Below are positions 9,123-63,979 of a DNA stretch of 64,000 nucleotides, piece by piece. The notes under the pieces were generated by a model. That model worked only from the letters and a program-made list of their open reading frames with translations. It did no database searches and was not told the DNA's origin. Positions within the stretch are counted from its first letter, which is position 1, and each line of letters begins with the position of its first letter. The DNA lies in contig CAZHTS010000003.1 of assembly GCA_964535315.1 (NCBI GenBank), positions 1-64,000 on the forward strand, in the 5' to 3' direction. The position numbers and the translations under genes were made by a program. This stretch comes from an uncultured Anaerolineaceae bacterium. Lineage in GTDB: Bacteria > Chloroflexota > Anaerolineae > Anaerolineales > Anaerolineaceae.

Positions 9123-12100
9123 ATGACTCACAAATGGATATCCGGCCTGTTGATGGCTGCTCTGCAACTTCAGCCCTTCCTGTCGCAACCTTCAACCGCC
9201 AACCCGGCAAACGCGTCCCCAATGCACGCCAGCCTGCCTGCTGCCAGTGCAGATTGGACATTCAATATTAACAATCAGGGCGTAGGACGCAACATTATAA
9301 CCGCCGATATAAATGGCGACGGCTTCTCGGATGCGATTGTAGGCGCGAATGAGTACAGCAACTATCGCGGGGCGGTTTACGGATTCTACGGCTCGGCAAA
9401 CGGGCTGAACGCCACCCCTGACTGGTCGCTAGAGGGCGAAAATTCGTACGACTCCTTTGGGGCAGCCCTGGCCAACGCCGGCGATGTCAACGGCGACGGT
9501 TATGCCGACCTGCTCGTCGGCGCCGGCAACTACCCCGGCGGCACGACCTACACCGGCAAGGTCTATCTGTATTACGGTTCTGCCAGCGGACCGGAGCATT
9601 CCCCCGCCTGGGAAAAAACAGGGGAAGATGAAGGCTCGCGCCTGGGCTCTGCGCTGAGCGGCGTCGGCGACCTTAACGCCGATGGTTTTGGCGATGTGAT
9701 CATCGGCGCACCGGGATACGGTGGCTCATTATGGCATGGCCGCGCCTATACCTACCTCGGTTCCGCAGATGGCCTGCCGGCCAACGCCAGCCAGGTGTTG
9801 ACCGGCACGGCGCAAAACGAAATGGTCGGCAATATCGTCGCCCGCGCCGGAGACGTCAACGCCGACGGATTTGCCGACGTCGTCCTCTCCACCAGCAGCC
9901 AGGCGTATACCCGCAAAACACTCCTGTATCAAGGCGGCCCAGACGGGCTGGACGAAACGCCGGCCTGGACAATCACCAATGAACAGGCCGGCTACATGAC
10001 CCCGTCGGGGGCCGGTGATCTCAACGGGGACGGCTATGCCGACATCGCCGTGGTTGCCGAAACCAGCGCACAGGTCTATTTCGGCGCTGCCGGTGGGCCG
10101 CCAACCTCCCCGGGCTGGACGGTTGCCATCGCCAATAATCATTGTCAGATCCCAGGTGGCAATGGCGACGTCAATGGCGATGGCTACGCCGACCTGGCGA
10201 TCAGCGACCGCTGTTATACCCAGGGTGAAACCTACGAAGGCACGGTCGCACTTTACCTGGGTTCATCCGGCGGACTCGCCAGCACTGCCGCCTGGACGGC
10301 CGAGGGCAATCACACCCACATGCAAATGGGCGCCTCTATCAATATCTCAGGAGATATCAACGGCGACGGTTACTCAGATATTTTGACCGGCGCCTACGAC
10401 TTCAATTTTTCAACCACACCGGTTTTGCAAGAAGGCAAAATTTTTGCTTTTCACGGCGCCCCTGATTTTCTCGCCGCTCAGGCTGACTGGAGCGTAGGAG
10501 GCGGGCAGACCTCTGCTCACCTGGGACAGAGCGTCAGTCAGGCTGGTGATGTCAACGGTGACGGTTTTGACGACGTCCTGATCGCTGCTCCCACTTTTGA
10601 CAACGAGCAAGCAGATGAGGGCCGGGTATACCTGTATGCTGGCTCAGCATCAGGGTTGAATGCTGCCCCGGCCTGGAGTGGCGAAGGCAACCAGCCCGGC
10701 GCACAATACGGCAGTGCCGTCAACGCTGCCGGCGATGTAAACGGCGATGGGTTTGCAGACGTTGCCATCGGCGCCCCTTATTTCGATCATGGCCAGGACG
10801 ATGAGGGGGTAGCGGTGGTATACGCTGGCTCGGCGACGGGTTTACAGTCCAGCCCGCTCTGGAGCGTCGAAGGAGATCAGGCCGCTTCTCATCTGGGTAG
10901 TTCACTGGCCTCCGCAGGCGACGTCAACGGGGATGGCTTCGCCGATTTAGTGGTCGGCGCACCCGGCTACAATAATGTCGGACAGGCGCGCCTGTACCTG
11001 GGCGCTGAAACCGGCCTGAGCGCCGTTCCAACCTGGACGGCCAACGGTGTGCAGACCGGTGAAGCGTTTGGTTCTTCAGTCGGCAGCGCTGGCGACGTCA
11101 ACGGCGACGGTTTTGCCGATGTCCTGATCGGCGCCGCGCAGGCCAGCAACGGCGAAAACACCGAGGGCAAAGCGCTGCTCTATCTGGGCTCGGCCGCGGG
11201 CCTCAGCGCCACGCCGGCCTGGACAGTGGAAGGCAATCTGGCTGGCGCTGGCTGCGGTGCGGCGGTCGGCAGCGCCGGAGACGTCAACGGCGACGGCTTT
11301 GCCGATCTACTCATCGGCTGTCCGGGGTATAGCAACGAGCAGACCAACGAGGGACGCGTCTACATTTACTCCGGCTCCAGCGGGGGCCCCGGCAGCCTCT
11401 CATTCAATACCATCGAAATCAACCAGGAAAATGCCTGTTTCGGCATATCGGTATCCACCGCCGGGGATGTCAACGGAGATGGCCTGAGCGAAATTGTGAT
11501 CGGTGCACACCGCTTTAGCAGCGGTCAGACAAACGAGGGGGCCGCGTTCCTTTACCGGGCCCAGGGCAGCCCTGTCTGGGGACTGGCCAGCGACCAGGAT
11601 AACGCCTTCCAGGGTGTGTCGGTCAGCAGTGCGGGCGACGTCAACGGTGATGGATACAATGACGTCATCATTGGCGCCAGCGGTTACACGGCCGGTCAGA
11701 GCGAGGAAGGGCGCGCAACGGTCTATTACGGCAACGCCAGGCCCGGCCTGCCGCTTGCGCTGCGCATGTACCAGCCCGATCGCACCCCCTTGCCCCTCTA
11801 CGGGGTATCCACCAGCCCCGACTCGCTGCAACTATCCTTCCTGGGGCGCAGCCCATGGGGCCGCAGCAAGGCCAGGCTCGAATGGGAAATCAAGCCGGCC
11901 GGCGTTCCCCTGGATGCCGCCGGCCTGGAAAGCACCCCAACCTTCGTGGACACGGGTCTCAACGAATATCTTTTCGAGCCCCTGCTCTCCGGTCTGAGCA
12001 AGAACACGGCATATCACTGGCGTGTTCGCCTGTGGTACGATCCCATTACCACCCCCGGCCAGCCCCACAGCCGCTGGTTCAGCCCCCCTCAAAACGGATG

Positions 12101-12509
12101 GGCGCAGCCCGATTTCCGTACTGCGGACCTACCAATAGAACTCGAATTCGATCAGGCTGCTTATACCTCCACAGAAAGTAGCGGCGCAGTTACTATCCGG
12201 GTGCAGATCAGCAAACCCCCAGAACAAGACGTGCACATTCAATACCACACTGAAGATGGAAGCGCCCTGGCTGGCAACGATTATGCCGCCGCCAGCGGAA
12301 CATTGACTTTCGTTGCCGGTGCGACGGCCAGTCAGGCTATTTCCATTCAAATCATTCGTGATTTTGAGCATGAGACGGACGAAACGTTCACCCTGGTGTT
12401 GAGTGGTATCACCCCGTCAGGCGCCGCCCGTGTCGCCGGCACCAACCCCGTCCAGATCACCCTCACCGACAGCCCACAGACCATCTACCTGCCATTTAAC
12501 CTGCGTTGA
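9123..12509 (+). CDS. Secreted FG-GAP (integrin-alpha-like) repeat protein with a C-terminal Calx-beta domain
   Basis: Signal-peptide-like N-terminus. At least 14 repeats of the ...GDVNGDGFADV/L..G.P... FG-GAP calcium-binding motif. The C-terminus (IELEFDQAAYTSTESSGAVTIRVQIS...YHTEDGSALAGNDYAAASGTLTFVAGATASQAISIQIIRDFEHETDETFTLVLSG) matches Calx-beta. Confidence 0.85.
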   Translation: MTHKWISGLLMAALQLQPFLSQPSTANPANASPMHASLPAASADWTFNINNQGVGRNIITADINGDGFSDAIVGANEYSNYRGAVYGFYGSANGLNATPDWSLEGENSYDSFGAALANAGDVNGDGYADLLVGAGNYPGGTTYTGKVYLYYGSASGPEHSPAWEKTGEDEGSRLGSALSGVGDLNADGFGDVIIGAPGYGGSLWHGRAYTYLGSADGLPANASQVLTGTAQNEMVGNIVARAGDVNADGFADVVLSTSSQAYTRKTLLYQGGPDGLDETPAWTITNEQAGYMTPSGAGDLNGDGYADIAVVAETSAQVYFGAAGGPPTSPGWTVAIANNHCQIPGGNGDVNGDGYADLAISDRCYTQGETYEGTVALYLGSSGGLASTAAWTAEGNHTHMQMGASINISGDINGDGYSDILTGAYDFNFSTTPVLQEGKIFAFHGAPDFLAAQADWSVGGGQTSAHLGQSVSQAGDVNGDGFDDVLIAAPTFDNEQADEGRVYLYAGSASGLNAAPAWSGEGNQPGAQYGSAVNAAGDVNGDGFADVAIGAPYFDHGQDDEGVAVVYAGSATGLQSSPLWSVEGDQAASHLGSSLASAGDVNGDGFADLVVGAPGYNNVGQARLYLGAETGLSAVPTWTANGVQTGEAFGSSVGSAGDVNGDGFADVLIGAAQASNGENTEGKALLYLGSAAGLSATPAWTVEGNLAGAGCGAAVGSAGDVNGDGFADLLIGCPGYSNEQTNEGRVYIYSGSSGGPGSLSFNTIEINQENACFGISVSTAGDVNGDGLSEIVIGAHRFSSGQTNEGAAFLYRAQGSPVWGLASDQDNAFQGVSVSSAGDVNGDGYNDVIIGASGYTAGQSEEGRATVYYGNARPGLPLALRMYQPDRTPLPLYGVSTSPDSLQLSFLGRSPWGRSKARLEWEIKPAGVPLDAAGLESTPTFVDTGLNEYLFEPLLSGLSKNTAYHWRVRLWYDPITTPGQPHSRWFSPPQNGWAQPDFRTADLPIELEFDQAAYTSTESSGAVTIRVQISKPPEQDVHIQYHTEDGSALAGNDYAAASGTLTFVAGATASQAISIQIIRDFEHETDETFTLVLSGITPSGAARVAGTNPVQITLTDSPQTIYLPFNLR
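9280..11520 (+). repeat. Intragenic tandem DNA repeats (~190-200 bp period) encoding the FG-GAP modules
   Basis: Recurrent near-identical cores such as gacgtcaacggcgacggttttgccgat / gatgtcaacggcgacgg at a regular spacing throughout the gene. Confidence 0.6.
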
Positions 12510-12721
12510 GCGTAACAGCCACCACACAAGCCTAAAAATGGCCGCCGGAAGGTTTCTTTCCCGGCGACCGTCAAACGCCTCCACAACCGGCCGATTTTCC
12601 TTCGTAAACCGGGAACGAACCATCGATCATTTCCGTCTATAAAATAGAACCAGGCTGTTTCTGGTTCCATCCGGCGCCCATTCGGATACAATAAAGATAT
12701 ATGGAGAAGGAGGGTCCAGCC

Positions 12722-18700: not shown

Positions 18701-18832
18701 GTGTACAACTACACCTACGTCACCCGCGCCACCACGCCCGGTCGCTATGTGGTTCCGCCGGCTAAGGCCGAAGAGATGTACTCGCCCGAAGTGTTCGGGC
18801 GCAGTGGCAGCAATATCGTCATCGTGGAATAA
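12722..18832 (+). CDS. Alpha-2-macroglobulin family protein (bacterial A2M, thioester-containing) with an N-terminal membrane anchor and Pro-rich linker
   Basis: Thioester motif CTEQ (AYPFECTEQLSSRIL, nt 17342-17353). A2M receptor-binding/MG-domain-like C-terminus (WWWWRSWFEHQNLRDERAEAF...). N-terminal TM helix plus PPPRPG...PPPTQPPPPDP linker. Start at 12722 (RBS GGAGAAGGAGGG) is preferred over 12701. Confidence 0.9.
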   Translation: MSNQPQRTNTRLPVLALLLVLFICLIVAGGAAYFLLRNRMSLPFSPTGTQQIPVNLLPANNTGGAVVTQTVESGAPLQLSEGQAQPETVQRLPVATGEPLSQAQVDQILARLPTLVPQPGQQTDFKLAQQPIPPPRPGTTVQGAFPPPTQPPPPDPASAGPLQVLRFAPEGEIPTAPFISVTFNQPMVPLTTLADLSARDVPVRVEPPLEGTWRWIGVKTLTFEYDSALIDRLPKATEYHISVPAGTRSQTGGVLAETVEWKFTTPPPRVVATYPPDSPQPLKPLFFIQFDQRIDPAAVLKTIQVNAGGQPVALQLAGEEETQVDKGVSRMIKNAAAGRWLAFRAVQPLPADTGIAVTIGPGTPSAEGPLLTKEAQTYGFRTYAPLRIESHGCSWTDENTCRPLSPFYIRFNNNIDVSSYAESMLHIAPELAGVSANIYGNTITIKGATQGQTTYTVDLSGKIKDVFGQELGQDARLTFQVGKAEAVLFGPKQGFVTIDPFAGKPQFSVYTINYTKLNVQIYAVQPSDWPAYKQYLRDFQRNDVKTTPPGRRVFNKAINIEAESDALIETGIDLSPYMDGSFGHFVVIVEPPTGWFQQKEYWRTVQSWVQITQVGLDAFVDHSDMVVWATSLKDGAPLSGIDIAAETSGKQAATGSDGLARFAIPNNASYLVASSGADKALLPRSTAFWSDETWAARPVLDTLRWYVFDDRQMYRPGEEIHIKGWMRRIGGKQNGDVGPSTGITAVNYRITEPQGNEIGTGRAEVNALGGFDFAFTLPEAVNLGNASIYIYGEGNLGNLEGNQYYHSFQIQEFRRPEFEVKASNETPGPYFAGDHTNALVEARYYAGGPLPGAEVSWQVTTAPGSYTPPNWSDFTFGTWQPWWFYGWGDGGSSEGGQTETFNGRTDAAGVHRLRLDFNQNLGPRPLSVVASAAVMDVNRQAWGATTTLLVHPASLYVGMRSERYFVERGTPLEIDLIVTNLDGKPVIDRPIKVRAARLDWKYHGDRWGEEEADVQECTAGSKSEPVRCTFETALGGSYRITAEISDELGRKNQSQFIRWVSGGQRPAARNVEQEQVTLIPDKESYQPGDVANILVQPPFSPAEGLLTVSRSGLLYTERFQVTEGAVTLKIPIAAGHIPNLNIQVDLTGSANRLNERGETVAGAPRRPAYATAQLTLNIPPTQRRLTLSANLAAAELEPGQETTLDVTVKDAAGQPVSDAELAVVVVDEAILALSNYNMADPLFTFYTARPAELESLYGRASILLANPQELAEEARQKANEADGMLAGAAAVPAPAMEAAPTMAAMADEAKAGAAAPQPIRMRMDFNPLATFAPATHTNADGTARVTIKLPDNLTRYRVMVAAVDGGSGRRFGITESNLVARLPLMVRPSAPRFLNFGDRFELPVVLQNQTAEPLTVDVAVRASNLTLTGAAGQRVTIPARDRVEVRFPATTQLAGTARFQVAAVSGSYADAATVELPVYTPATTEAFATYGVIDEGNTAQPVAALNDIFPQYGGLEISTSSTALQSLTDAVLYLVAYPFECTEQLSSRILAVAALRDVLTAFKAEGLPSASEMEAAVQRDVERLQGLQNSDGGFPYWRRGQDSIPFNTIHVAHALQRAELKGFKVPEEMKPRLLQYLRQIENYYPSWYSQHTRQTLSAYALYVRHLMGDRDPDKAIQLLDEAGLENLDLDAVGWLWQVLQDAPNAGARLEAIRKHVNNRVVETAGAANFTTSYDDQSYLLLNSDRRTDAILLEALMIDDPKSDLTPKVVNGLLAHRTRGRWGNTQENVFVLLALDRYFNTYEARTPDFVARMWLGDAYVGEHAFRGRTTERYEVTVPMSYLVDQTAAGTQNLILSKDGPGRMYYRLGLRYAPTDLELPPLDMGFTVQRVYEAVDDPKDVSQDSDGVWHIKAGARVRVRLTLVAANRRYHVALVDPLPAGLEIVNPALAVSGSIPQDPNASDYSYGWWWWRSWFEHQNLRDERAEAFTSLLWDGVYNYTYVTRATTPGRYVVPPAKAEEMYSPEVFGRSGSNIVIVE

Positions 18833-53644: not shown

Positions 53645-53709
53645 CGTGCACGACTACACTCTATAACAGATACAAAATGCTCTGTATTACATTGCCAAGG
53701 AGTCTAGCC

Positions 53710-55188
53710 ATGCACATTCTATTGACCTACCCCGAATTCCCTGACACTTTCTGGAGCTTTAAACATGCGCTCCGTTTCGTTCACAAACGCGCCTCTTCGC
53801 CGCCCCTCGGCCTGCTGACCGTGGCCGCCATGCTGCCCAACGAGTGGGAAAAACGCCTGATCGATCTCAATGTCCAACCACTGTGCGACGAGGACATCGC
53901 CTGGGCAGACATGGTCTTTATCAGCGCCATGGTCGTCCAGCGTGAATCCACCCGCCAGGTGATCCAGCGCTGCCATGCGGCCGGAAAGACCATCGTGGCC
54001 GGCGGCCCAATTTTCAGCGGCGAATGGGAACAGTTCCCCGAGGTGGATTACTTCGTACTCGGCGAAGGTGAGCTCACTCTGCCACGCTTCCTGAGCGATC
54101 TGGCCAACAACTGCCCCCAGCACGTCTATACCGCCGAGGGCTACGCCGATCTGGCCAGTTCACCGGTTCCCATGTGGGAACTGGTCGACCTCCGTCGTTA
54201 CGAATCGCTCAGCATCCAGTATTCGCGCGGCTGCCCCTTCAACTGCGACTTTTGCAATATCACCGCCATGCTCGGACACCGGCCACGCACTAAAAGCGCC
54301 GCCCAGATCATCGCCGAATTGGACAAGATGTATGCCCTCGGCTGGCAGCGCGGCGTATTTTTCGTCGATGACAATTTCATCGGCAACAAACGCCAGATCA
54401 AAGAAGAAATCCTGCCGGCGCTGATCGAATGGCGCAAAGATAAAAGCGGTTATAACTTCATCACCGAGGCTTCGATCAACCTCTCGGATGACGAAGAACT
54501 AATGGATCTGATGACCGCCGCCGGCTTTACCTCGGTCTTCGTCGGTATCGAAACCCCCGATGAGAGCAGCCTGGCCGAATGCGGCAAAGGCCAGAATACC
54601 CGTCGCGATCTGGTTGAATGTGTGCGCCGCCTGCAAAACCGCGGCATCCAGGTGATGGGAGGTTTTATCGTTGGTTTCGATAACGATACCACCAGCATCT
54701 TCCAACGTCAGATCGAATTCATCCAGAATAGCGGCATCGTCACTGCCATGGTTGGCATGCTCCAGGCCCCTTACGGCACCCAGCTCTACGCTCGCATGGA
54801 AAAGGAAGGCCGCCTGGTGCACGAAATGTCAGGCGATAACGCCGACGGCTCAACCAATATCATCCCGCGCATGGGCCTGGAAACACTGAGCGCCGGTTAT
54901 CGCCAGGTGGTACACGAGATTTATTCGCCAGAAAAATTTTACCAGCGGGTCAAAACCTTCCTGCGCAACTACAACCCGCCCATTATTCACACCAATTTGC
55001 AAATTGTCGAAATCCTGGCCTTCTTCCAATCCATCTGGCAGTTGGGCATCGTCGGCAAGGAGCGGCGCGAATATTGGCGGTTGTTCTTCTGGGCGTTATT
55101 CAAATACCCGCGCAAATTTGCCATGGCCATCACTCTGGCCATCTACGGCTTCCATTTCCGCAAAGTCAGCGAGCTAAATGGCATCTGA
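53710..55188 (+). CDS. B12-binding domain-containing radical SAM protein (class B rSAM, DUF4070-type C-terminus)
   Basis: Start at MHILLTYPEF (RBS AAGGAG). N-terminal cobalamin-binding Rossmann region (PPLGLLTVAAMLP). rSAM cluster motif YSRGCPFNCDFCNI. Confidence 0.85.
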   Translation: MHILLTYPEFPDTFWSFKHALRFVHKRASSPPLGLLTVAAMLPNEWEKRLIDLNVQPLCDEDIAWADMVFISAMVVQRESTRQVIQRCHAAGKTIVAGGPIFSGEWEQFPEVDYFVLGEGELTLPRFLSDLANNCPQHVYTAEGYADLASSPVPMWELVDLRRYESLSIQYSRGCPFNCDFCNITAMLGHRPRTKSAAQIIAELDKMYALGWQRGVFFVDDNFIGNKRQIKEEILPALIEWRKDKSGYNFITEASINLSDDEELMDLMTAAGFTSVFVGIETPDESSLAECGKGQNTRRDLVECVRRLQNRGIQVMGGFIVGFDNDTTSIFQRQIEFIQNSGIVTAMVGMLQAPYGTQLYARMEKEGRLVHEMSGDNADGSTNIIPRMGLETLSAGYRQVVHEIYSPEKFYQRVKTFLRNYNPPIIHTNLQIVEILAFFQSIWQLGIVGKERREYWRLFFWALFKYPRKFAMAITLAIYGFHFRKVSELNGI

Positions 55189-56933: not shown

Positions 56934-57653
56934 ATGAACACTGTAATCGAAGCCAATGAAGTTAGCAAAGTGTACCGCTCCGGCGCCAACAGCGTGCGCG
57001 CTGTAGATCAGGTCTCGTTCAACGTCAAAGCCGGTGAATTTGTTGGACTGGTCGGACCCAGCGGCTCGGGCAAGACCACCATGCTGGCCATGCTGGCTGC
57101 CCTGCTGCTGCCCAGTGAAGGAGCCGTGACCATCGATGGGCAAAATCTGAGCAAACTGAACGATCAGCAGCGCGTGCGCTTCCGCCGCGAACGGATCGGT
57201 TTCACCTTTCAATCCAACAACCTGGTACCCTATCTCACCGTCCAGGAAAACGTCGAACTCATGCTGCGCCTGAATGGGCGTTACGACCGCAGCGAGCGCC
57301 AGCGGGTGCTCGATTTGCTCGACCGGCTCGGGCTGAGCGAACGGCTCAACAACCTGCCCAGCCAGATTTCAGGTGGCCAACGCCAACGCGTCGCCATTGC
57401 CCGCTCGCTGATCCACAACCCCAGCCTGGTGCTGGCGGACGAACCCACCGCCAGCCTCGATACCGAGCGCGCTTACCAGGTCGTGCGTATCTTTTCCGAT
57501 CTGATCCATGAGCAAAACAAAGCCGGCATCATGGTCACTCACGACCTGCGCATGTGCGTTTACGTCGATAAGGTCTTCCAGATGAACGACGGCAAAATTT
57601 CCTCGGTGCTTTCGACCAAAGCCGAAATCGACGCCCTCATCTCCTGCGGTTAA
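56934..57653 (+). CDS. ABC transporter ATP-binding protein (MacB/LolD-type)
   Basis: Walker [10 protein letters not shown], signature [15 protein letters not shown], Walker [20 protein letters not shown] upstream of the ATG. Confidence 0.9.
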
Positions 57654-58071
57654 CGGCCGCGATGTTTTTCTTTCTTACGCTGCTGGCGCAGGCGATATTT
57701 TTCCGCCTGCGCTTCTTCGCGCTCCTCCTTGCCGGTCTGCCGGCGCTCTTGCTTGCCCCGTTCTCGCTCTGCCTGCAAGGCTGCTTGAGCGCGCGTACAG
57801 CTGCGCCCGCCTTGCTGCGCCATCAGACGCCGCACCTCACGCTGTCTGCGCTTGAAATTTACCTCACCCCGGTTGACGCACGACGCCGGCTCAAGTGGCG
57901 CGCTAAAAACCACCTGGCGGTTGTATTGATGTAAAGCAAAATCAAGCAATTCAGCCTCGCCCGGCTCGGCGCCAAAAACCACCCGCGCCACAGCATACCC
58001 TGCTTCATCGCCGCGTTCAAAAACCGCCACCCAAAAAGGATCTTCAAAGAGAACCGTACATGTATACGCCA
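57650..58071 (-). CDS. DUF2992 (YjdC-like) family protein
   Basis: N-terminus MAYTCTVLFEDPFWVAVFERGDEAGYAVARVVFGAEP matches the DUF2992 signature. C-terminal basic tail (KRRQREVRR...[12 protein letters not shown]). The ORF-track N-extension is discarded. Confidence 0.5.
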
Positions 58072-58202
58072 TTCTGACACCTGTCAATAAAAAAGCCCCT
58101 GCCGCGCAGGGGACTCGTAAATAAAACAACCCCTCAAAAAACGAGGGTCGAGTCACAATCGTCTGGATGTCAGATACCGTTTACTTACCCGCATTATACC
58201 AC

Positions 58203-58242
58203 CAAAAATACGACCTCCCCTGCTGAGGAACAGGGGAGGTCG
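58203..58242 (-). terminator. Rho-independent terminator downstream of the sortase-fusion gene
   Basis: 12-bp stem CGACCTCCCCTG / CAGGGGAGGTCG with loop CTGAGGAA; the - strand has a T-run after the hairpin (TATTTTTGGTGG). Confidence 0.55.
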
Positions 58243-58266
58243 CGTCTGACCGCCGGAATAATATCC

Positions 58267-60495
58267 TTACTGTGTCTCGATTGATATTAACGTTGCCCGT
58301 ACCACCAGGCGGCTGGCATACTGTCCGCTCTGAGCGTCGTAGTCCTGACAGGTGATCAGCGTCAACCAGGATTGCTCCTCGTGGCGCAGCGGGCTCAGGT
58401 CGCCCGGCTTCACCAGCCCCACCTCGCGCACCTCGTACACATAGCGCTGCCCCCACGCCTGCACTTCCACCCGGTCCCCCCAACCCAGCGTCTTCAGGTC
58501 TACAAACGGTCCCGGCTTCCCATCCGGCAGATACACGTGCCCCGTGATCACGCTGTTCCCCGCCCAGGTCGGGAACGCCGTCCCCTCCAGGTAGCCCGCC
58601 TGCTCCCACAGCCAGCTCAGATCCCAACTGTCGCCTACCTGCGGCACCCCCACCACCGCCATCTTCACCCCCAGCTTCGGCACCACCAGCTGCATATCGT
58701 TCTGCTGGCTATACACCTTCTCCAACGGTTGTTCGCCCAACAGCGTTTCCGCTCCCGGTGCAAAGCCCGTCGCCGGCAGTATCACCGCCGGGCCCTTGTA
58801 GCGCTGTCCTGCCACCCCCACTCCGCTCAGTTTGAAGCGCACCGTCCCCGGCCCCGCCTGCGCCGTCACATACGCCGTCGTCTTCGCCCCATCCAGCGCC
58901 GCCACCACCATCGCCTGCCCGGATTGGTTCGTCCGGGCACGCGGCGTGCTCAACTGCACCCCAGACCCGGCGTCCGGTGTGTACACCACCCGCCAGTTCT
59001 CCAGCGCATTGCCGTACGTGTTGTACACCCCCAGGCGCAGCGGGCTGCCCAACAGATCCCCCACCTTCTCCGTGTTCGGCAGCCCCGAATTGGCCACCAG
59101 CACCGGTTTGGCGTCGTACTCGAACGCCCCGATGTCACACTTGCCCACATTCGCCAGCCCGCGCTGATCGCGGTAGTCGCACGTCGCCATGTTCCCACGG
59201 TCGATCGCCGGACTGCCCGCCTTCAGCCCCAGCGTGCCCGTCGGCCCGCCGTTGTCCGCCACACCGTTCTCATGCAGCCCGGTGATCGCCTCCATCCGGT
59301 CCGACTTGTCGTCCGGCTGGAGTTCTAACTGCGGGTCTGTACGGTTCAACGAACTCTTGCCGCTGAACCCGCACGATGTGCCCGTATCGATGTTGTTGCC
59401 CCCGTTCTCGATCCCGCCCGCACCGCCCTTCTTCAGCGTGTTCTTGCAGTTGGTCGTGTCGTACGTCCGGCACACCTGACGCGGACGACCGCTACTATCA
59501 TATTTGTACTCGCAATCCATATCCTTGCTCTGCGCCACGATCGAGTTGCGCAGCACCACCCGCGCCGTCGTCGGCGGGCCATAGAAGGCGTTCGAGAAGT
59601 TCTCCACCGCATTCGGATTGTTCCCGTAGAACGTGCAGCGGTTGCACTCCGCAAAGCTCTGATCCCCCAGGAACGAGAAGTTCATCAGCCCCCCACCCTC
59701 GTCCATCGCCATGTTGTTGTAGATCGTCGACGTGTTGATCGTCGTTTGCGAGGCGTTGTAGATCCCGCCGCCCCGCCTCATCGCCCGGTTGTTCTGGATC
59801 ACGCTCTTCGTGATCACCGTCTCCTGCCCCCACGCATACACCCCGCCCCCGTCCATGTACGCCAGGTTGTCGGCGATGTCGCTGTTCTCGATCACCAGCT
59901 TACTCGCATACGGCGAATACATGTAGATCGCCCCGCCCAGGTGCGCCGTGTTGTGCACCAGCACCATATTCTGCAGCACCAGGCTCCCGTACGTCTTGAT
60001 CGCACCCCCATATTGCAGCTTCCCAGGGTACCCGTTGCGCAGCGTCAGGTTGCGCAGCGTCAACGTGATCTCCGAACCAAAGTCCACCACATGGAAGATG
60101 CGATCCCCGCTCATCTCGTGGCTGAAATCCTTGTAGCCATCGATGATCGTCGTGTCCGGGTCTTCGCCCACGATCGTCAGCGACCCGCCGTAGTCCTTGA
60201 TGTCCAGATCCCCGCCTGCATTCTCGTCGTCGTGCCCACCATACAGGTAATACGTCCCCGCCGGCACATAGATCTCGTCCATCCCGCTGTGCTTCGTGGC
60301 ATAGTTCACCGCACCCCGCAGACTGCAATCCCCAGGCGCGCTGGTACACGCCGACAACGAACCGTCGTCCTCGACCGTGTCCACCACCACCTGCGGCAGC
60401 GCCTGCGCCGGCGCAGCGCCCAGTGTGCCCAGCGCTCCAAGCGCCAGCGCCAGAGCCACCCCCCAGCGTACCAACTGCCATATCCTTTGCGCCAT
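58267..60495 (-). CDS. Secreted right-handed beta-helix (choice-of-anchor-Q-like) domain protein fused to a C-terminal sortase catalytic domain; internal LPATG motif
   Basis: Signal peptide (ALALALGALGTLGAAPAQA). CSLRGAVNYA and many N/G-rich beta-helix rungs. LPATG at nt 58765-58779. The C-terminal 160 aa have sortase hallmarks (VITGHVYLPDGKPGPFVDLKTLGWGDRVEV...SWLTLITCQDYD..RLVVRA) with the His...Cys(TLxTC)...Arg triad. Confidence 0.75.
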   Translation of the reverse strand: MAQRIWQLVRWGVALALALGALGTLGAAPAQALPQVVVDTVEDDGSLSACTSAPGDCSLRGAVNYATKHSGMDEIYVPAGTYYLYGGHDDENAGGDLDIKDYGGSLTIVGEDPDTTIIDGYKDFSHEMSGDRIFHVVDFGSEITLTLRNLTLRNGYPGKLQYGGAIKTYGSLVLQNMVLVHNTAHLGGAIYMYSPYASKLVIENSDIADNLAYMDGGGVYAWGQETVITKSVIQNNRAMRRGGGIYNASQTTINTSTIYNNMAMDEGGGLMNFSFLGDQSFAECNRCTFYGNNPNAVENFSNAFYGPPTTARVVLRNSIVAQSKDMDCEYKYDSSGRPRQVCRTYDTTNCKNTLKKGGAGGIENGGNNIDTGTSCGFSGKSSLNRTDPQLELQPDDKSDRMEAITGLHENGVADNGGPTGTLGLKAGSPAIDRGNMATCDYRDQRGLANVGKCDIGAFEYDAKPVLVANSGLPNTEKVGDLLGSPLRLGVYNTYGNALENWRVVYTPDAGSGVQLSTPRARTNQSGQAMVVAALDGAKTTAYVTAQAGPGTVRFKLSGVGVAGQRYKGPAVILPATGFAPGAETLLGEQPLEKVYSQQNDMQLVVPKLGVKMAVVGVPQVGDSWDLSWLWEQAGYLEGTAFPTWAGNSVITGHVYLPDGKPGPFVDLKTLGWGDRVEVQAWGQRYVYEVREVGLVKPGDLSPLRHEEQSWLTLITCQDYDAQSGQYASRLVVRATLISIETQ

Positions 60496-60563
60496 CTGTG
60501 CCTCCTTCCCGTCTCAGACCGCTCCGTTTCCATCCCGCCAGGGATGACTCAGCGGATACAGTC

Positions 60564-61793
60564 TTATTCCTCGACAAAGTTGGCAGAGGCGGTCATGTTC
60601 CAGCGCAGCCGTTCATCCTGCTGATCCAACGTAATCACCACCTTGTAGGTGATATCGCCCTGTTTGTTCTGTCCCAGCGCCTGGATGCGCTCTACCTTCC
60701 CGCTCAGTTCCAGCCCGGGGATGGCGTCCAGCGTGATCTTCACCGGCCCGCCAACCTTCACCCGCACCACGTCCAGTTCGGTCAGATCGGTCGTCTCCAC
60801 CTGCCAGGTCGCCATGTCCGCCAGCGTCGCCACCGGCGTGTTCGGCGCCACCCGCTCACCCACCTTCAAGTCGTTGGTCACCACCGTGCCCCCAAACGGC
60901 GCTTCCAGCACCATGTCATCCAGTGTCGCTTTGGCCGCATCCAGCTGCGCCTGGGCGTTCTTGATGCGCGCATCCGCCAGCGCCAGATCGTCCGGGTCCG
61001 GCCCGTTTTTCAATTCGTCAAAATCGCGTTTGGCGGTCGACAGTTCGGCTTCCGCCACCTTCAGGGAGTTATCTGCCACCCCGATTTCCAACGGATCCGG
61101 GTTCTCCAACAACCAGTTGAGGCGTTTTTTGGCGTCATCGCGCATGTCGCGCACCTTGGCCAGTTGCGACAACGCCGCCGCCCGGTTGATATCTTCTTCG
61201 TCATAATTGGCAAAATAAGCAAAGCTGTCTTCGGCGTCTTCGACCGCATCCTGCGCCAGGATGTACTCCGCCCGGGCCTGATCCAGTTTGTCCTGGTCGG
61301 CGCGGCGGTAACGCTTACGCGTCGCCTCTTCTTTGGCGTCGTCCAGCGCCTTTTCTGCCTTCGCCACCCGCAGCGCCGCCTGCGCCCGGGTCACATCCAG
61401 GTTATCGTACAGTTTATCCTTGGCCTGGCGGGCATTGAGCAGTTCCATCTCTGCCGCAGCGATAGAGGCCTTGACCTGCTCTGAACCCTGTAATCGGGCA
61501 ATCGGCTGGCCCTTCTCCACCTGGCTGCCCTCGGGCGCCAGAACTTCTTCCACCACGCCCGCCGTGGCAAAACTCAGGGTGGCATCTTGCAACGGCACCA
61601 CCTCAGCTTCGGCAATCACCCCACCCTCAGCCCGCACCGGGGCCGAAATGGCCGTCGCCTCTGCCGGCGAAGGCGTTTCCGACTGAGCACCACACCCTGC
61701 CAGCCCAAATAACGTGGCAGCTACAACCAACAAACCAACAAGGACGGTCAAACGATTTTTCATGGCATTTCTCCTCAGTGAACTTTCTGGCAT
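60564..61793 (-). CDS. HlyD/MacA-type periplasmic adaptor (membrane fusion protein) of a tripartite ABC efflux system
   Basis: N-terminal lipoprotein-like signal (LVVAATLFGLAGC). Long coiled coil (AAAEMELLNARQAKDKL...). Beta-barrel/lipoyl segments (VVRVKVGGPVKITLDAIPG). Confidence 0.8.
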   Translation of the reverse strand: MPESSLRRNAMKNRLTVLVGLLVVAATLFGLAGCGAQSETPSPAEATAISAPVRAEGGVIAEAEVVPLQDATLSFATAGVVEEVLAPEGSQVEKGQPIARLQGSEQVKASIAAAEMELLNARQAKDKLYDNLDVTRAQAALRVAKAEKALDDAKEEATRKRYRRADQDKLDQARAEYILAQDAVEDAEDSFAYFANYDEEDINRAAALSQLAKVRDMRDDAKKRLNWLLENPDPLEIGVADNSLKVAEAELSTAKRDFDELKNGPDPDDLALADARIKNAQAQLDAAKATLDDMVLEAPFGGTVVTNDLKVGERVAPNTPVATLADMATWQVETTDLTELDVVRVKVGGPVKITLDAIPGLELSGKVERIQALGQNKQGDITYKVVITLDQQDERLRWNMTASANFVEE

Positions 61794-61795
61794 TG

Positions 61796-63979
61796 CTATT
61801 CGTACGCCAGAACATCGCGAACGGTCAAACGGACTGCATTTCGCGCCGGCATAAAACTGGCCAACGTCGAAATGATCAATACCACAATCAACCAGATAAT
61901 AAAACCATCAAACGAGAAGGTCATATTGAGCGGCACGGTCAACAGCGAATACCCAACCGCGTCTCCCAACACCTTACTGATCGGGATGGCCAGCAGAGCG
62001 CCCAGCAGCCAGCTCATGACGCCAATCAGCAACCCTTCAAAAATCACCATACCCAAAATAGTCAGATCCGAAGCTCCAATGGAACGCATCACACCGATTT
62101 CGCGAGTACGTTCCATCACGTTCATGCTCATCGTTCCCATTAACCCCAGCCCCCCCACCAGGGCAATCAGGATAGCCATTGCCATGAGCGCATAGATCAA
62201 CACATCGATCTGCTGCGCCTGCTGTACACGAATCTCAGAGCCAGTCGTAATGCCGGTTGCATTAATACCTTTATCTTTTAACATCTTTTCCAACGCCTTG
62301 CCAACGCGTGTTTCTGTCAACGCGTCCTGTGAGGCAGTGATCACCCGAAACTCGCTGGTCAGGTCAATTTCATCGCGCATCTTGGCCAGGTATTCATTGT
62401 TTGCATAAACAAACGGCGGTTCTACGTTACCCGTCAACACATAGGTACCCACGATCTGCCACTTGCTTTCTTTGCCCTTAATCTTGATCGTAACCGCATC
62501 CCCCACCTTGAGATCCGGGCGTTTCTTCAATAAGTGATTGCCGACCACCAACGCATTCTGATCCTCTGGCAGCAACCAACGCCCTGCAGTCATCACGGGC
62601 TTGATCAACGCCGAACCCGCCGGCGGCGCCCACAATAAGACCTGTACCGAGGTCTTGTCGTCTGACGACATGAGCTGGCCGGTGCTGATCCCCCAGCCTT
62701 CAATCGCAGTAACGTCTGGGATGCGCAAAGCAATCTGCTCGATCTCCTTAATTCGGTACTGTTTATCCAGCGAAACGTTGATGTCCGAAAGGAAATACCC
62801 CAACGTTTTATTAATCTCAACCACAATCGAAGTACGGATATTGAAAATCGCGATAAAGATCGCTCCGCCCAATGTCAAAGTGAACAGGGTCAATGCCAGA
62901 CGCGTCTTGCGCCGGAAAGTGTTGCGCAGCGAAATTAACAACGGGCGAGACAGGAAACGAATGCTTTCTACCATCCGGTCGACCAGGCTCTTGCCAAACT
63001 GCCCGGCCGAAAGGCCATAATTACTGATCGCCTCACGCACCGTCAGGCGCGTGCCGCTGATTACCGGCCCAGCCGCAGCCGCCAAAGGTACCAGCAGCGC
63101 CACAATCAATTGCAGCACCACCGCCACAGGAATAAAACGGAACCCCAACAGGTTGAAGTTCAAGAAAGAAGCCAGCGCACTCGCCAACGAATAGGCCAGA
63201 TAACCGCTTAACGGCGCGGCAATCAAAAAAGCAATGGCCCCATAGCTGAGCACCAGGCCAATATACATGCCAATCAACTGATTGGAATCGGCGCCAATGG
63301 CCTTCATCATCCCAATCTGGCGGATGTGTTGGCTGAGCAAAGCATTCATGGTGTTGACCACCAGAAAAGCGCTTAAAAACACCGCCAACACCCCCAGCCC
63401 CCCCAGGAGGGTCAACATGGCCGCCACAAAACTACCGATCGGGTGTTGCCCAGGCTGATAGACAAAGGTGTAATAGACTTCGCGTCCGCCCTTTTCAATC
63501 TTCTCGGCCACATTTTGTGCGACCCGATTGACATGCGCCTCATTCGACTGGTCGCGCGCTACGGTGATGTACAGCTGGTTATAATCGGCCTCACCGCCCA
63601 GCCAGGTCAGGGTTTCTTCATTAACAAACCCGCTCAGTTGTTGCGAGAAAGCATACGAGAAACCGGTCACGTCATGCACAATGCCCGCCACACGCAATTC
63701 GCGCTGGCGGTTTTCACCGATGGTTACGGTGATTGTATCGCCTTCCCTGGCCGGGATGGCGCTGGCGCCCGAACGCTCAATATAGATTTCATGCAGACCC
63801 AGCGGCGGGAACGCCCCTTCGCCCTCATAACGGATCGTATCGATCTGCATCTGATCGACCGCCGGGATACGCTGGATCGAAATGGGGATCTTTTTTGTTG
63901 CGCCTGCCACCGTGGCCGTGATAGAAGCGCGGCCCTCCGCCGCGCCCACCTCCGGCATTCGTTTGACAATTTCAACCAC
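61796..63979 (-). CDS. ABC transporter permease with duplicated FtsX domains (MacB/YknZ-like, 8 TM)
   Basis: Two FtsX-type 4-TM modules, each preceded by a large extracytoplasmic domain. The frame stays open upstream to the window edge (…PESFDDDVVEIV…), so the true 5' end, or a fused ATPase domain, may lie beyond 64000. Confidence 0.75.
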   Translation of the reverse strand: MVEIVKRMPEVGAAEGRASITATVAGATKKIPISIQRIPAVDQMQIDTIRYEGEGAFPPLGLHEIYIERSGASAIPAREGDTITVTIGENRQRELRVAGIVHDVTGFSYAFSQQLSGFVNEETLTWLGGEADYNQLYITVARDQSNEAHVNRVAQNVAEKIEKGGREVYYTFVYQPGQHPIGSFVAAMLTLLGGLGVLAVFLSAFLVVNTMNALLSQHIRQIGMMKAIGADSNQLIGMYIGLVLSYGAIAFLIAAPLSGYLAYSLASALASFLNFNLLGFRFIPVAVVLQLIVALLVPLAAAAGPVISGTRLTVREAISNYGLSAGQFGKSLVDRMVESIRFLSRPLLISLRNTFRRKTRLALTLFTLTLGGAIFIAIFNIRTSIVVEINKTLGYFLSDINVSLDKQYRIKEIEQIALRIPDVTAIEGWGISTGQLMSSDDKTSVQVLLWAPPAGSALIKPVMTAGRWLLPEDQNALVVGNHLLKKRPDLKVGDAVTIKIKGKESKWQIVGTYVLTGNVEPPFVYANNEYLAKMRDEIDLTSEFRVITASQDALTETRVGKALEKMLKDKGINATGITTGSEIRVQQAQQIDVLIYALMAMAILIALVGGLGLMGTMSMNVMERTREIGVMRSIGASDLTILGMVIFEGLLIGVMSWLLGALLAIPISKVLGDAVGYSLLTVPLNMTFSFDGFIIWLIVVLIISTLASFMPARNAVRLTVRDVLAYE

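What the first reader, a model, noticed from the sequence alone, without database searches (positions are those of the whole stretch)
58267..60495. Secreted beta-helix protein carrying its own C-terminal sortase domain and an LPATG motif immediately upstream of it
Sortases are normally small, separately encoded, membrane-anchored enzymes that act on other proteins' LPXTG/LAXTG signals. Here a 742-aa protein with a signal peptide and a pectate-lyase-like right-handed beta-helix ends in a complete sortase catalytic domain (His in ITGH, Cys in LTLITC, Arg in RLVVRA). An LPATG pentapeptide sits ~30 residues before that domain, not followed by the usual hydrophobic/positively charged sorting tail. 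This could be a cis-acting, self-cleaving sortase-like module, for example a self-processing or transpeptidating passenger release, or a sortase tethered to its substrate domain.
Basis: seen in the sequence. Interest (0 to 1): 0.6.

Follow-up and report, generated by a model that had tools for sequence, protein, structure and literature searches.

The report
Surface protein carrying its own sortase
A secreted adhesin-like protein ends in an LPATG cleavage signal fused directly to its own sortase enzyme, and this turns out to be a very large, apparently undescribed C-terminal module of Anaerolineae bacteria that probably lets surface proteins cleave and anchor themselves without a membrane-bound sortase.

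Summary
ORF 58267..60495 (-) encodes 742 aa: signal peptide, beta-helix, choice-of-anchor Q domain, Ig-like domain, disordered hinge, LPATG (573-577), 25-aa linker, then a complete sortase barrel (H653, C716, R729). No transmembrane segment follows the motif.

It is not an assembly artefact or a one-off. The module ([L/I]PxTG-FAP, linker, sortase) occurs in at least 1,345 protein clusters, mostly within about 25-40 residues of the C-terminus of proteins of 200-4,179 aa. Nearly all genomic matches are in Anaerolineae. Passengers are varied adhesin-type domains.

The motif behaves like a true sorting signal: P, T and G are 97-99% conserved, x is free, and spacing to the Cys is fixed. Its first residue co-varies with a residue in the sortase's beta6/beta7 loop, the loop that reads sorting signals in known sortases. 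Homologous passengers elsewhere carry classical LPXTG+TM+tail or GlyGly-CTERM-like ends instead.

Best reading: a self-contained sorting module. The domain cleaves its own LPxT|G and transfers the passenger to an envelope nucleophile. Cleavage itself is untested, and a lid-like pseudo-substrate role remains possible. I found no description of this in the searched literature. It is a new variant of sortase-mediated sorting.

The parts
58267..60495 (-). Whole CDS, 742 aa plus stop: signal peptide, beta-helix passenger, LPATG, sortase domain
60501..60505 (-). Shine-Dalgarno GGAGG, 5 nt spacer before the ATG
   Evidence: sequence read directly
60400..60495 (-). Sec-type signal peptide, residues 1-32, predicted cleavage after AQA
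   Evidence: only hydrophobic segment of the protein; helix 2-26; sequence features
60298..60387 (-). CSLREA-like N-terminal motif (…GDCSLRGAV…), residues 37-66; below the NCBIfam cutoff
   Evidence: TIGR04214, 16.6 bits against 25
59401..60288 (-). Right-handed beta-helix passenger, residues about 70-365, rhombotarget-A-like
   Evidence: RbtA/9cdu hits; PF13229; AF2, pLDDT mostly above 90
59113..59262 (-). Choice-of-anchor Q domain, residues 412-461
   Evidence: NF041518, 58.4 bits against cutoff 25
58816..59103 (-). Ig-like beta-sandwich (weak Big_1), residues 465-560
58780..58815 (-). Flexible hinge, residues 561-572 (pLDDT below 50 for 561-569)
58765..58779 (-). LPATG pentapeptide, residues 573-577; predicted scissile bond T576|G577
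   Evidence: conservation; covariation
58690..58764 (-). Conserved FAP anchor plus linker, residues 578-602; aligns with the lid region of class C sortases and is modelled docked on the barrel
   Evidence: alignment to GLDPF/LDPW lids; pLDDT about 96
58270..58689 (-). Sortase beta-barrel, residues 603-742
58537..58539 (-). Catalytic His653 codon
   Evidence: invariant
58387..58389 (-). Leu703 codon, in the short helix of the beta6/beta7 loop; co-varies with the first motif residue
58348..58350 (-). Catalytic Cys716 codon
   Evidence: invariant
58309..58311 (-). Catalytic Arg729 codon
   Evidence: invariant, Cys+13
58210..58243 (-). Intrinsic terminator hairpin (15-bp stem, T-run) ending the operon
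60564..61793 (-). Upstream gene: HlyD/YknX-type membrane-fusion adaptor, 68 bp from the sortase-fusion gene; synteny conserved with the orthologues
61796..63979 (-). Upstream gene: MacB-type FtsX permease of the same apparent operon

Best explanation
The last ~170 residues are a self-contained sorting module, in which a sorting signal and its processing enzyme sit on one chain. Proposed steps: (1) the protein is exported by Sec and the N-terminal signal peptide is removed (inferred from sequence); (2) the LPATG-FAP segment, tethered by a 25-residue linker, lies in the substrate groove of its own sortase barrel, where class C sortases hold their lid (supported by alignment, AF2 confidence and covariation); (3) Cys716, with His653 and Arg729, attacks the T576-G577 bond and gives a passenger-LPAT-thioester on the sortase domain (inferred from sortase chemistry, not shown here); (4) an amine in the multilayered Anaerolineae envelope, most likely a peptidoglycan stem peptide or another wall or sheath component, resolves the thioester. 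The beta-helix passenger then becomes covalently attached by its C-terminus, and the ~18 kDa sortase domain, now starting GFAP…, is released (inferred). The module therefore replaces the hydrophobic segment and charged tail of a classical LPXTG signal and removes the need for a membrane-anchored sortase. The module is generic, carried by hundreds of different adhesin-like passengers. This particular passenger belongs to a conserved operon with a MacB-type ABC permease and a membrane-fusion adaptor.
Against: No experiment shows cleavage. Stable docking of the motif and its covariation with the recognition loop would also be expected of an uncleaved pseudo-substrate lid. Covariation cannot separate intramolecular action from action between identical molecules. 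A soluble sortase has no obvious access to lipid II, and the acceptor nucleophile is unknown. The released domain keeps an N-terminal Gly docked by FAP, which could favour re-ligation. The absence of other sortases was checked only within +-10 kb of module genes, not in whole genomes.
Confidence: 0.55

Rival explanations
1. Pseudo-substrate lid. LPxTGFAP is an uncleaved, autoinhibitory mimic of a sorting signal that occupies the active site, as the DP[FWY] lid does in class C sortases. The tethered sortase domain acts on other proteins or other molecules once the lid is displaced.
For: The motif aligns next to the class C lid anchor. The closest sequence and Foldseek matches are lid-bearing class C sortases. 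High-confidence docking and covariation with the recognition loop fit a stably bound lid equally well.
Against: A mimic that must not be cleaved would be expected to lose the scissile T-G, yet T and G are 97-99% conserved and the whole canonical pentapeptide is kept with a free x. No separate substrates with classical signals occur in the sampled loci. It does not explain why hundreds of unrelated passengers each carry a private sortase at their C-terminus, at the position where homologues carry sorting signals.
Confidence: 0.2
2. Intermolecular polymerisation. The module cleaves the LPxTG of its own or a sister molecule and joins the Thr to a Lys of another subunit, as in class C pilus assembly. 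This would build covalent fibres, a matrix or a sheath layer outside the cell instead of anchoring to peptidoglycan.
For: The best sequence and Foldseek relatives are pilus-polymerising class C sortases. Many passengers contain SpaA, Cna-B-like pilin-backbone, SdrD_B and DUF11 domains. Filamentous Chloroflexota have a shared outer layer with a protein coat and DUF11-based appendages (PMC13319060).
Confidence: 0.15
3. Self-release only. The domain hydrolyses the T-G bond, so the module is a removable C-terminal pro-domain, for example a secretion or folding aid, and the passenger is released free.
For: Sortases hydrolyse their acyl-enzyme when no nucleophile is present, and engineered fusions use this for release. 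The protein has no membrane tether near lipid II.
Against: Passengers are adhesin-type domains that normally need anchoring. Homologues use anchoring signals at the same position. Transpeptidation is the conserved role of the superfamily.
Confidence: 0.07
4. Artefact: two genes merged by a missed stop, a frameshift or a chimeric assembly.
For: None found. One related locus (L005, 9884-10543) has only 44 in-frame residues upstream and could be a frameshifted copy.
Against: The ORF is continuous, with an SD and a terminator. An identical protein is on a 74.9 kb contig. Collinear homologues come from independent metagenomes, and 81 of 83 genomic instances are fused.
Confidence: 0.01

Closest known systems
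Class C (pilus-specific) sortases with an N-terminal lid, e.g. E. faecalis Ebp SrtC (24rr), A. oris SrtC1 (2xwg), S. pneumoniae SrtC-1 (2w1j)
   Same: They give the best sequence and Foldseek matches. The beta-barrel and the His/Cys/Arg triad are the same. An N-terminal extension is laid over the substrate groove, and the module's G-F-A-P aligns with the lid's G-L-D-P / L-D-P-W.
   Different: The module has no N-terminal membrane anchor. The lid motif DP[FWY] is replaced by a complete LPxTG signal plus FAP. The enzyme is the C-terminal domain of its presumed substrate. NCBIfam class C scores 46.8 bits against a cutoff of 160.
Classical tripartite LPXTG cell-wall sorting signal processed by a separate membrane-anchored housekeeping sortase (class A/E)
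   Same: An LPxTG pentapeptide with a free x lies C-terminal to adhesin-type passengers behind a Sec signal peptide. Homologous passengers carry the classical signal at the same position.
   Different: The hydrophobic segment and charged tail are absent, and a sortase domain stands in their place. The enzyme is not membrane-bound. An invariant FAP follows the Gly.
Engineered self-cleaving sortase fusions (SrtA-LPETG-target; Mao 2004, cited in PMC4658790)
   Same: Sortase and its recognition pentapeptide sit on one chain, and self-cleavage between T and G has been shown experimentally for those constructs.
   Different: They are artificial and have the opposite order (enzyme, then signal, then cargo). 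The natural module is cargo, signal, enzyme, so the cargo would be the acyl donor that is transferred.
Hedgehog/HINT-type C-terminal autoprocessing domains
   Same: It would work alike in outline: a C-terminal enzymatic domain cleaves itself off through a (thio)ester and thereby attaches a moiety to the new C-terminus of the passenger (abstract of PMC9772569, seen).
   Different: The fold and chemistry are unrelated. There is no homology, and the resemblance is by analogy only.
Rhombotarget A / GlyGly-CTERM-rhombosortase and other 'choice-of-anchor' sorting systems
   Same: The passenger (CSLREA-like start, RbtA-like beta-helix, choice-of-anchor Q domain) is homologous to proteins that end in GlyGly-CTERM-like or LPXTG signals.
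   Different: There is no GlyGly-CTERM. TIGR04212 scores 41 bits against a cutoff of 295. The sorting enzyme is fused to the protein, not encoded separately.

Membership tests
Sortase superfamily (Pfam PF04203, TIGR01076) | Profile HMM score above the curated cutoff | tested here: met
   PF04203 75.1 bits against 26.6, profile positions 1-124 of 125; TIGR01076 44.6 bits against 39.35
Sortase superfamily | Catalytic His, Cys (TLxTC) and Arg (about 13 residues after the Cys) | tested here: met
   H653, C716 and R729; these columns are invariant in 81 and in 310 sequences
Sortase superfamily | Eight-stranded beta-barrel fold | tested here: met
Characterised sortases, classes A-F | Membrane anchoring through an N-terminal TM or signal-anchor next to the catalytic domain | tested here: not met
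   The only hydrophobic segment is the cleavable-type signal peptide 570 residues upstream. Hydropathy flags a segment after the motif in only 3 of 137 family members, and no homologue examined has an N-terminal TM anchor
Class C sortase (NF033745) | HMM cutoff and DP[F/W/Y] lid anchor | tested here: not met
   46.8 bits against 160; the lid position reads TGFAPG, with no Asp or aromatic anchor
Class D, E, F and GN sortases (NF033746, NF033747, NF033748, TIGR03784) | HMM cutoff | tested here: not met
   37.0/165, 35.7/160, 37.9/166 and 29.9/158 bits. NCBI nevertheless labels some fragments 'class F sortase, partial'
LPXTG cell-wall sorting signal | LPXTG pentapeptide near the C-terminal end of a secreted protein | tested here: met
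   LPATG at 573-577; the family consensus is [L/I]PxTG
LPXTG cell-wall sorting signal | Hydrophobic segment and positively charged tail after the pentapeptide | tested here: not met
   A 165-residue soluble sortase module follows instead
Choice-of-anchor Q domain proteins (NF041518) | HMM cutoff | tested here: met
   58.4 bits against 25, residues 412-461
Rhombotarget A (TIGR04212, equivalog) | HMM cutoff and a GlyGly-CTERM tail | tested here: not met
   41.4 bits against 295; no GlyGly-CTERM. Only the beta-helix is related (9cdu, E 1.3e-6)
CSLREA domain proteins (TIGR04214) | N-terminal CSLREA motif HMM | tested here: inconclusive
   16.6 bits against 25; the motif reads CSLRGA. Many passenger homologues are named CSLREA domain proteins
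Self-processing sortase module (proposed here) | C716-dependent cleavage at LPAT|G and transfer of the passenger | not testable with these tools
   Needs biochemistry or proteomics; only conservation, covariation and modelling are available

The most novel reading that the evidence does not exclude
Anaerolineae use substrate-borne, probably single-turnover sortases. Each surface protein would carry its own enzyme, already loaded with its own LPxTG, so that covalent attachment can happen away from the membrane, on outer wall or sheath layers, on neighbouring cells in the filament, or even on foreign amine-bearing surfaces. This would be a membrane-independent, lipid-II-independent sorting pathway, and a natural self-ligating protein tag of about 170 residues. 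It may be the main, or even the only, sortase system of this class.
Probability: 0.35. Interest if true: 0.85.

Novelty: new variant of a known kind. Interest (0 to 1): 0.72.

Why it matters
Sortase biology rests on a membrane-anchored enzyme acting on separately encoded substrates that are held in the membrane by a hydrophobic tail. A very large natural family in which the signal and the enzyme are one polypeptide with no membrane anchor would be a different solution to surface display.

It would bear on how the abundant but poorly understood filamentous Anaerolineae (digesters, sediments, wastewater) build and decorate their multilayered, apparently monoderm envelope.

It offers an evolutionary link between true sorting signals and the pseudo-substrate lid of class C sortases.

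It could also supply ready-made self-cleaving or self-ligating tags for protein engineering, with enzyme-motif pairs that co-vary and so may be naturally orthogonal.

Annotation pipelines currently call these proteins just 'sortase' or 'class F sortase, partial', which hides the architecture.

Tried and rejected
- **Frameshift or chimera:** rejected on conservation.
- **Direct geometric test (Cys716 to Thr576 distance):** not possible, because model coordinates are not exposed. I used DCA covariation instead. Weaker couplings of T576 and A579 with the residues just before His653 (ranks 53 and 49) rest on nearly invariant columns, and I did not rely on them.
- **AFDB search for cultured carriers:** the library was unavailable.
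- **A conserved partner gene:** the MFP/MacB neighbourhood is specific to the beta-helix orthologues and is not a feature of the module.
- **A second sortase or classical LPXTG-TM-tail substrates near module genes:** none found; the four regex hits were spurious. Only about 1.2 Mb around module genes was sampled, so this is weak evidence.
- **Literature:** eight full-text searches found no description of a natural LPXTG-sortase fusion. Subscription-only papers are not covered.
- **The short YLPxIxR tail seen in homologues:** rare in the module loci and unknown to NCBIfam; left as a side note.
Full report
**1. The observation**

It has a GGAGG Shine-Dalgarno 5 nt before the ATG. A 15-bp-stem terminator with a T-run (58243..58210) follows the stop.

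Pfam finds a full-length sortase domain at residues 603-736 (E 5e-21, 75 bits against a cutoff of 26.6). LPATG is at 573-577, ITGH at 650-653, LTLITC at 711-716 and RLVVRA at 729-734. The only hydrophobic stretch is the N-terminal signal peptide. The invariant catalytic Arg is R729, 13 residues after Cys716.

NCBIfam adds three features:
- a choice-of-anchor Q domain at 412-461 (58 bits against 25);
- a rhombotarget-A-like beta-helix at 125-333;
- a weak CSLREA-type N-terminal motif.

The solved RbtA structure 9cdu matches residues 57-329.

A full-length AF2 model (mean pLDDT 83.6) gives this layout:

| Residues | Feature |
|---|---|
| 2-26 | signal helix |
| ~70-365 | beta-solenoid |
| 465-563 | Ig-like sandwich |
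| 561-569 | disordered hinge (pLDDT below 50) |
| 571-580 | block holding LPATGFAP, pLDDT 87 |
| ~601-741 | sortase barrel, pLDDT mostly above 90 |

**2. Not an artefact and not a singleton**

The same protein is on record from a 74.9 kb contig. Three proteins from other metagenomes (P0002-P0004, 40-45% identity, 96-98% coverage) share the whole architecture. P0005 shares only the module, behind a different CSLREA-type passenger. All five keep LPxTGFAP.

Searching with residues 560-742 alone against 1.84 billion cluster representatives gave 5,216 hits with E<=1e-3, of which 1,345 had E<=1e-30. In the listed hits the match lies at or very near the C-terminus of proteins of about 200-4,179 aa. 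Most chains end 22-38 residues after the Cys. P0270 is an exception, with about 106 residues after the module.

The best 80 are almost all Anaerolineales or Anaerolineae MAGs. In those 80 loci plus the window, 88 module hits were found and 83 have a recognisable motif. Of these, 81 have at least 100 in-frame residues upstream (median 676, maximum over 3,300). The many 170-320 aa 'sortase' entries in protein databases are fragments from ~1 kb contigs or mis-started calls. None examined has an N-terminal membrane anchor.

**3. The motif behaves as a sorting signal**

In 310 non-redundant module sequences the column frequencies are L 77% (otherwise I, A, M or V), P 99%, x free (A 32%, then E, D, S, N, G, V…), T 97%, G 99%, then F 98%, A 89%, P 93%. 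His, Cys and Arg are 100%. The motif lies 142-144 residues before the Cys in 127 of 137 representatives, and almost none has a hydrophobic segment after it.

Passengers of other members are DUF11, DUF7507, DUF7927, DUF7933, SdrD_B, SpaA, Cna-B-like pilin backbone, Big_9 and cadherin domains, with FG-GAP also seen. This is the repertoire of LPXTG-anchored adhesins and pilins.

Conversely, homologues of this window's beta-helix passenger end in other signals: classical LPXTG + TM + basic tail (for example P0068, P0084, P0087, P0094, P0037), GlyGly-CTERM-like tails, dockerin-like repeats, or the sortase module. This is the behaviour the 'choice-of-anchor' name describes. The module therefore occupies the slot of a C-terminal sorting signal. 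Its LPxTG stands where the classical pentapeptide stands, and the sortase domain stands where the TM and tail would be.

**4. Evidence that the motif is read by its own sortase domain**

(a) *Lid correspondence.* Sequence-to-sequence and profile-to-sequence alignments place T-G-F-A-P-G on P-G-L-D-P-F of the Ebp class C sortase, and F-A-P-G on L-D-P-W of A. oris SrtC1. That is the DP[F/W/Y] lid anchor. In class C enzymes it sits in the sorting-signal site, contacting the catalytic Arg and Cys (PMC11231552).

(b) *Model confidence.* In the module-only AF2 model (pLDDT 89.6) the LPATGFAP segment has no secondary structure yet scores about 96. In the full-length model the break in confidence falls before the motif. 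The motif therefore belongs structurally to the sortase module.

(c) *Covariation.* Mean-field DCA on 310 sequences (Meff 272) recovers the hairpin registers of the barrel (165-182, 168-181, 169-179, 53-62, 52-65). Its strongest linker-barrel coupling, rank 11 overall, joins the motif's first residue to column 154. Column 154 is L703, 13 residues before the Cys, inside the short helix that AF2 predicts in the beta6/beta7 loop.
- With Leu in the motif, column 154 is Phe in 33 of 240 sequences. With Ile, Ala, Val or Met it is Phe in 40 of 60 (Fisher p 1.7e-15).
- Among 60 nearest-neighbour pairs that differ at the motif residue, 32 change in the predicted direction and 3 in the opposite one (sign test p 4e-7).
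- The non-Leu/Phe combination occurs in 24 separate clusters at 70% identity.
- The beta6/beta7 loop, with its short 3-10 helix, is the sorting-signal recognition element of sortases. That the SrtA pocket formed by this loop holds the Leu side chain is from my own knowledge of the SrtA-LPAT* complex.

This size-compensating pattern says that each sortase domain is tuned to the motif on its own chain, and not to a shared housekeeping enzyme.

(d) *No alternative enzyme or substrate nearby.* In about 1.2 Mb of module-bearing loci and the window there is no second sortase-like ORF. This search would have seen one, because the module profile detects class A-E sortases in the PDB at E 1e-6 to 1e-16. 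There is also no genuine LPXTG-TM-tail ORF, against 72 LPxTGF[AST]P modules. No neighbouring gene is conserved across module genes.

**5. Mechanism proposed**

Shown here:
- the architecture;
- the intact catalytic triad;
- conservation of the motif and its coupling to the recognition loop;
- the absence of a membrane anchor.

Inferred:
- Sec export and signal-peptide removal;
- the tethered LPATG occupies the groove;
- Cys716 cleaves T576|G577 to form a passenger-thioester;
- an envelope amine resolves it, fixing the beta-helix passenger covalently while the GFAP… sortase domain leaves.

Filamentous Chloroflexota are regarded as monoderm, with peptidoglycan plus further inner and shared outer layers and a protein coat (PMC13319060). 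An enzyme that travels with its substrate would allow attachment at layers a membrane-bound sortase cannot reach. That rationale is speculative.

An engineered precedent shows the chemistry is feasible on one chain: SrtA-LPETG-target fusions self-cleave between T and G (PMC4658790).

The rivals are:
- an uncleaved lid-like pseudo-substrate;
- class-C-like intermolecular polymerisation;
- hydrolytic self-release;
- artefact, which is effectively excluded.

The data cannot separate cis from homotypic trans action, and cannot identify the nucleophile.

**6. Comparison with known families**

Its LPATG meets the pentapeptide criterion of a cell-wall sorting signal but not the hydrophobic and charged-tail criteria. 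The passenger is related to RbtA and CSLREA proteins but is not an RbtA equivalog and has no GlyGly-CTERM.

Functionally the nearest analogies are classical sortase sorting, class C lid occupancy, engineered sortase self-cleavage tags and, more loosely, Hedgehog-type C-terminal autoprocessing domains (abstract seen).

**7. Context**

The gene is the last of an apparent operon: MacB-type FtsX permease (61796..63979), HlyD/YknX-type adaptor (60564..61793), beta-helix-sortase, terminator. A second FtsX permease and an ABC ATPase lie convergent downstream.

Part of this arrangement recurs around the orthologues. In both loci a YknX-type adaptor gene lies directly upstream. P0004 (L081) also has MacB-type permease and ABC ATPase genes on both sides, while the 7.6 kb P0002 contig (L082) holds only the adaptor. 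It does not recur around P0005 or in the other 80 module loci. The linkage therefore concerns this passenger's function, not the module.

**8. Novelty and verdict**

Eight full-text searches found no description of natural LPXTG-sortase fusions, of sortases in Anaerolineae, or of intramolecular sortase processing. Database names are generic: 'sortase', 'LPXTG-site transpeptidase family protein', 'class F sortase, partial'.

I rate it a new variant of a known kind: real, widespread and mechanistically suggestive, but biochemically untested.

Noticed in passing
window 12480-12506 (C-terminus of ORF 9123..12509, +); also P0006, P0008-P0010, P0015, P0017, P0023, P0030, P0034, P0036, P0039, P0045, P0060: The FG-GAP/Calx-beta surface protein of this window ends in …TIYLPFNLR. 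Many Chloroflexi CSLREA/beta-helix homologues end in the same kind of short tail, [YF]-[LIF]-P-[LIM]-[IVM]-x-[RK] within 0-4 residues of the end. It looks like another C-terminal tag, possibly undescribed. NCBIfam has no model for it, and it is rare in the module-bearing loci.
   Followed up: partly
window 60564-63979 (-); L081 468-13522; L082 423-1613: The beta-helix-sortase orthologues always sit directly downstream of a HlyD/YknX-type membrane-fusion adaptor gene. The window and L081 also carry MacB-type FtsX permease genes, and L081 has three ABC sets and two adaptors flanking the gene. This suggests the passenger works with a MacB-type exporter in a monoderm envelope. The linkage is absent from other module genes.
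   Followed up: partly
L005 9884-10543 (+): One module copy has only 44 in-frame residues upstream of its LPxTG. It is either a rare stand-alone form or a frameshifted gene in this MAG assembly. A second module gene lies 5 kb away in the same locus.
   Followed up: no
P0270 (525 aa, module at 246-419); P0137, P0193, P0205: A few family members carry 35-106 extra residues after the sortase barrel, so the module is not always strictly terminal. None of these extensions looks like a TM segment.
   Followed up: no
alignment, PDB 8t28_A (A. oris SrtC2) residues about 55-60: The family profile aligns its s-l-P-a-T-G to H-V-P-(gap)-T-G in the N-terminal extension of A. oris SrtC2, a class C sortase. 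This could be chance, or a hint that some class C lids retain signal-like sequence.
   Followed up: no
window 3211-5499 (+): A 762-aa protein combines a response-regulator receiver, a sigma-54-type AAA+ domain, a caspase (Peptidase_C14) domain and an effector-associated domain EAD7. It follows a hybrid histidine kinase at 1284-3263. This is an unusual signalling or conflict-system-like architecture.
   Followed up: no
window 12701-18832 (+): A 2,043-aa bacterial alpha-2-macroglobulin (MG2, bait region, A2M, bMG10) with an N-terminal membrane anchor lies directly after the FG-GAP surface protein gene.
   Followed up: no
L020 (DYJM01000124.1, 3.8 kb): A typical module gene sits on a short contig of a MAG labelled Acidithiobacillus ferrivorans. 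This is most likely a mis-binned Anaerolineae contig and not a true occurrence in a proteobacterium.
   Followed up: no
window 57650-58156 (-) and 53677-55188 (+): Downstream neighbours are a DUF2992 protein with a Lys/Arg/Glu-rich C-terminus and a B12-binding radical SAM enzyme with DUF4070. No link to the finding is evident.
   Followed up: no
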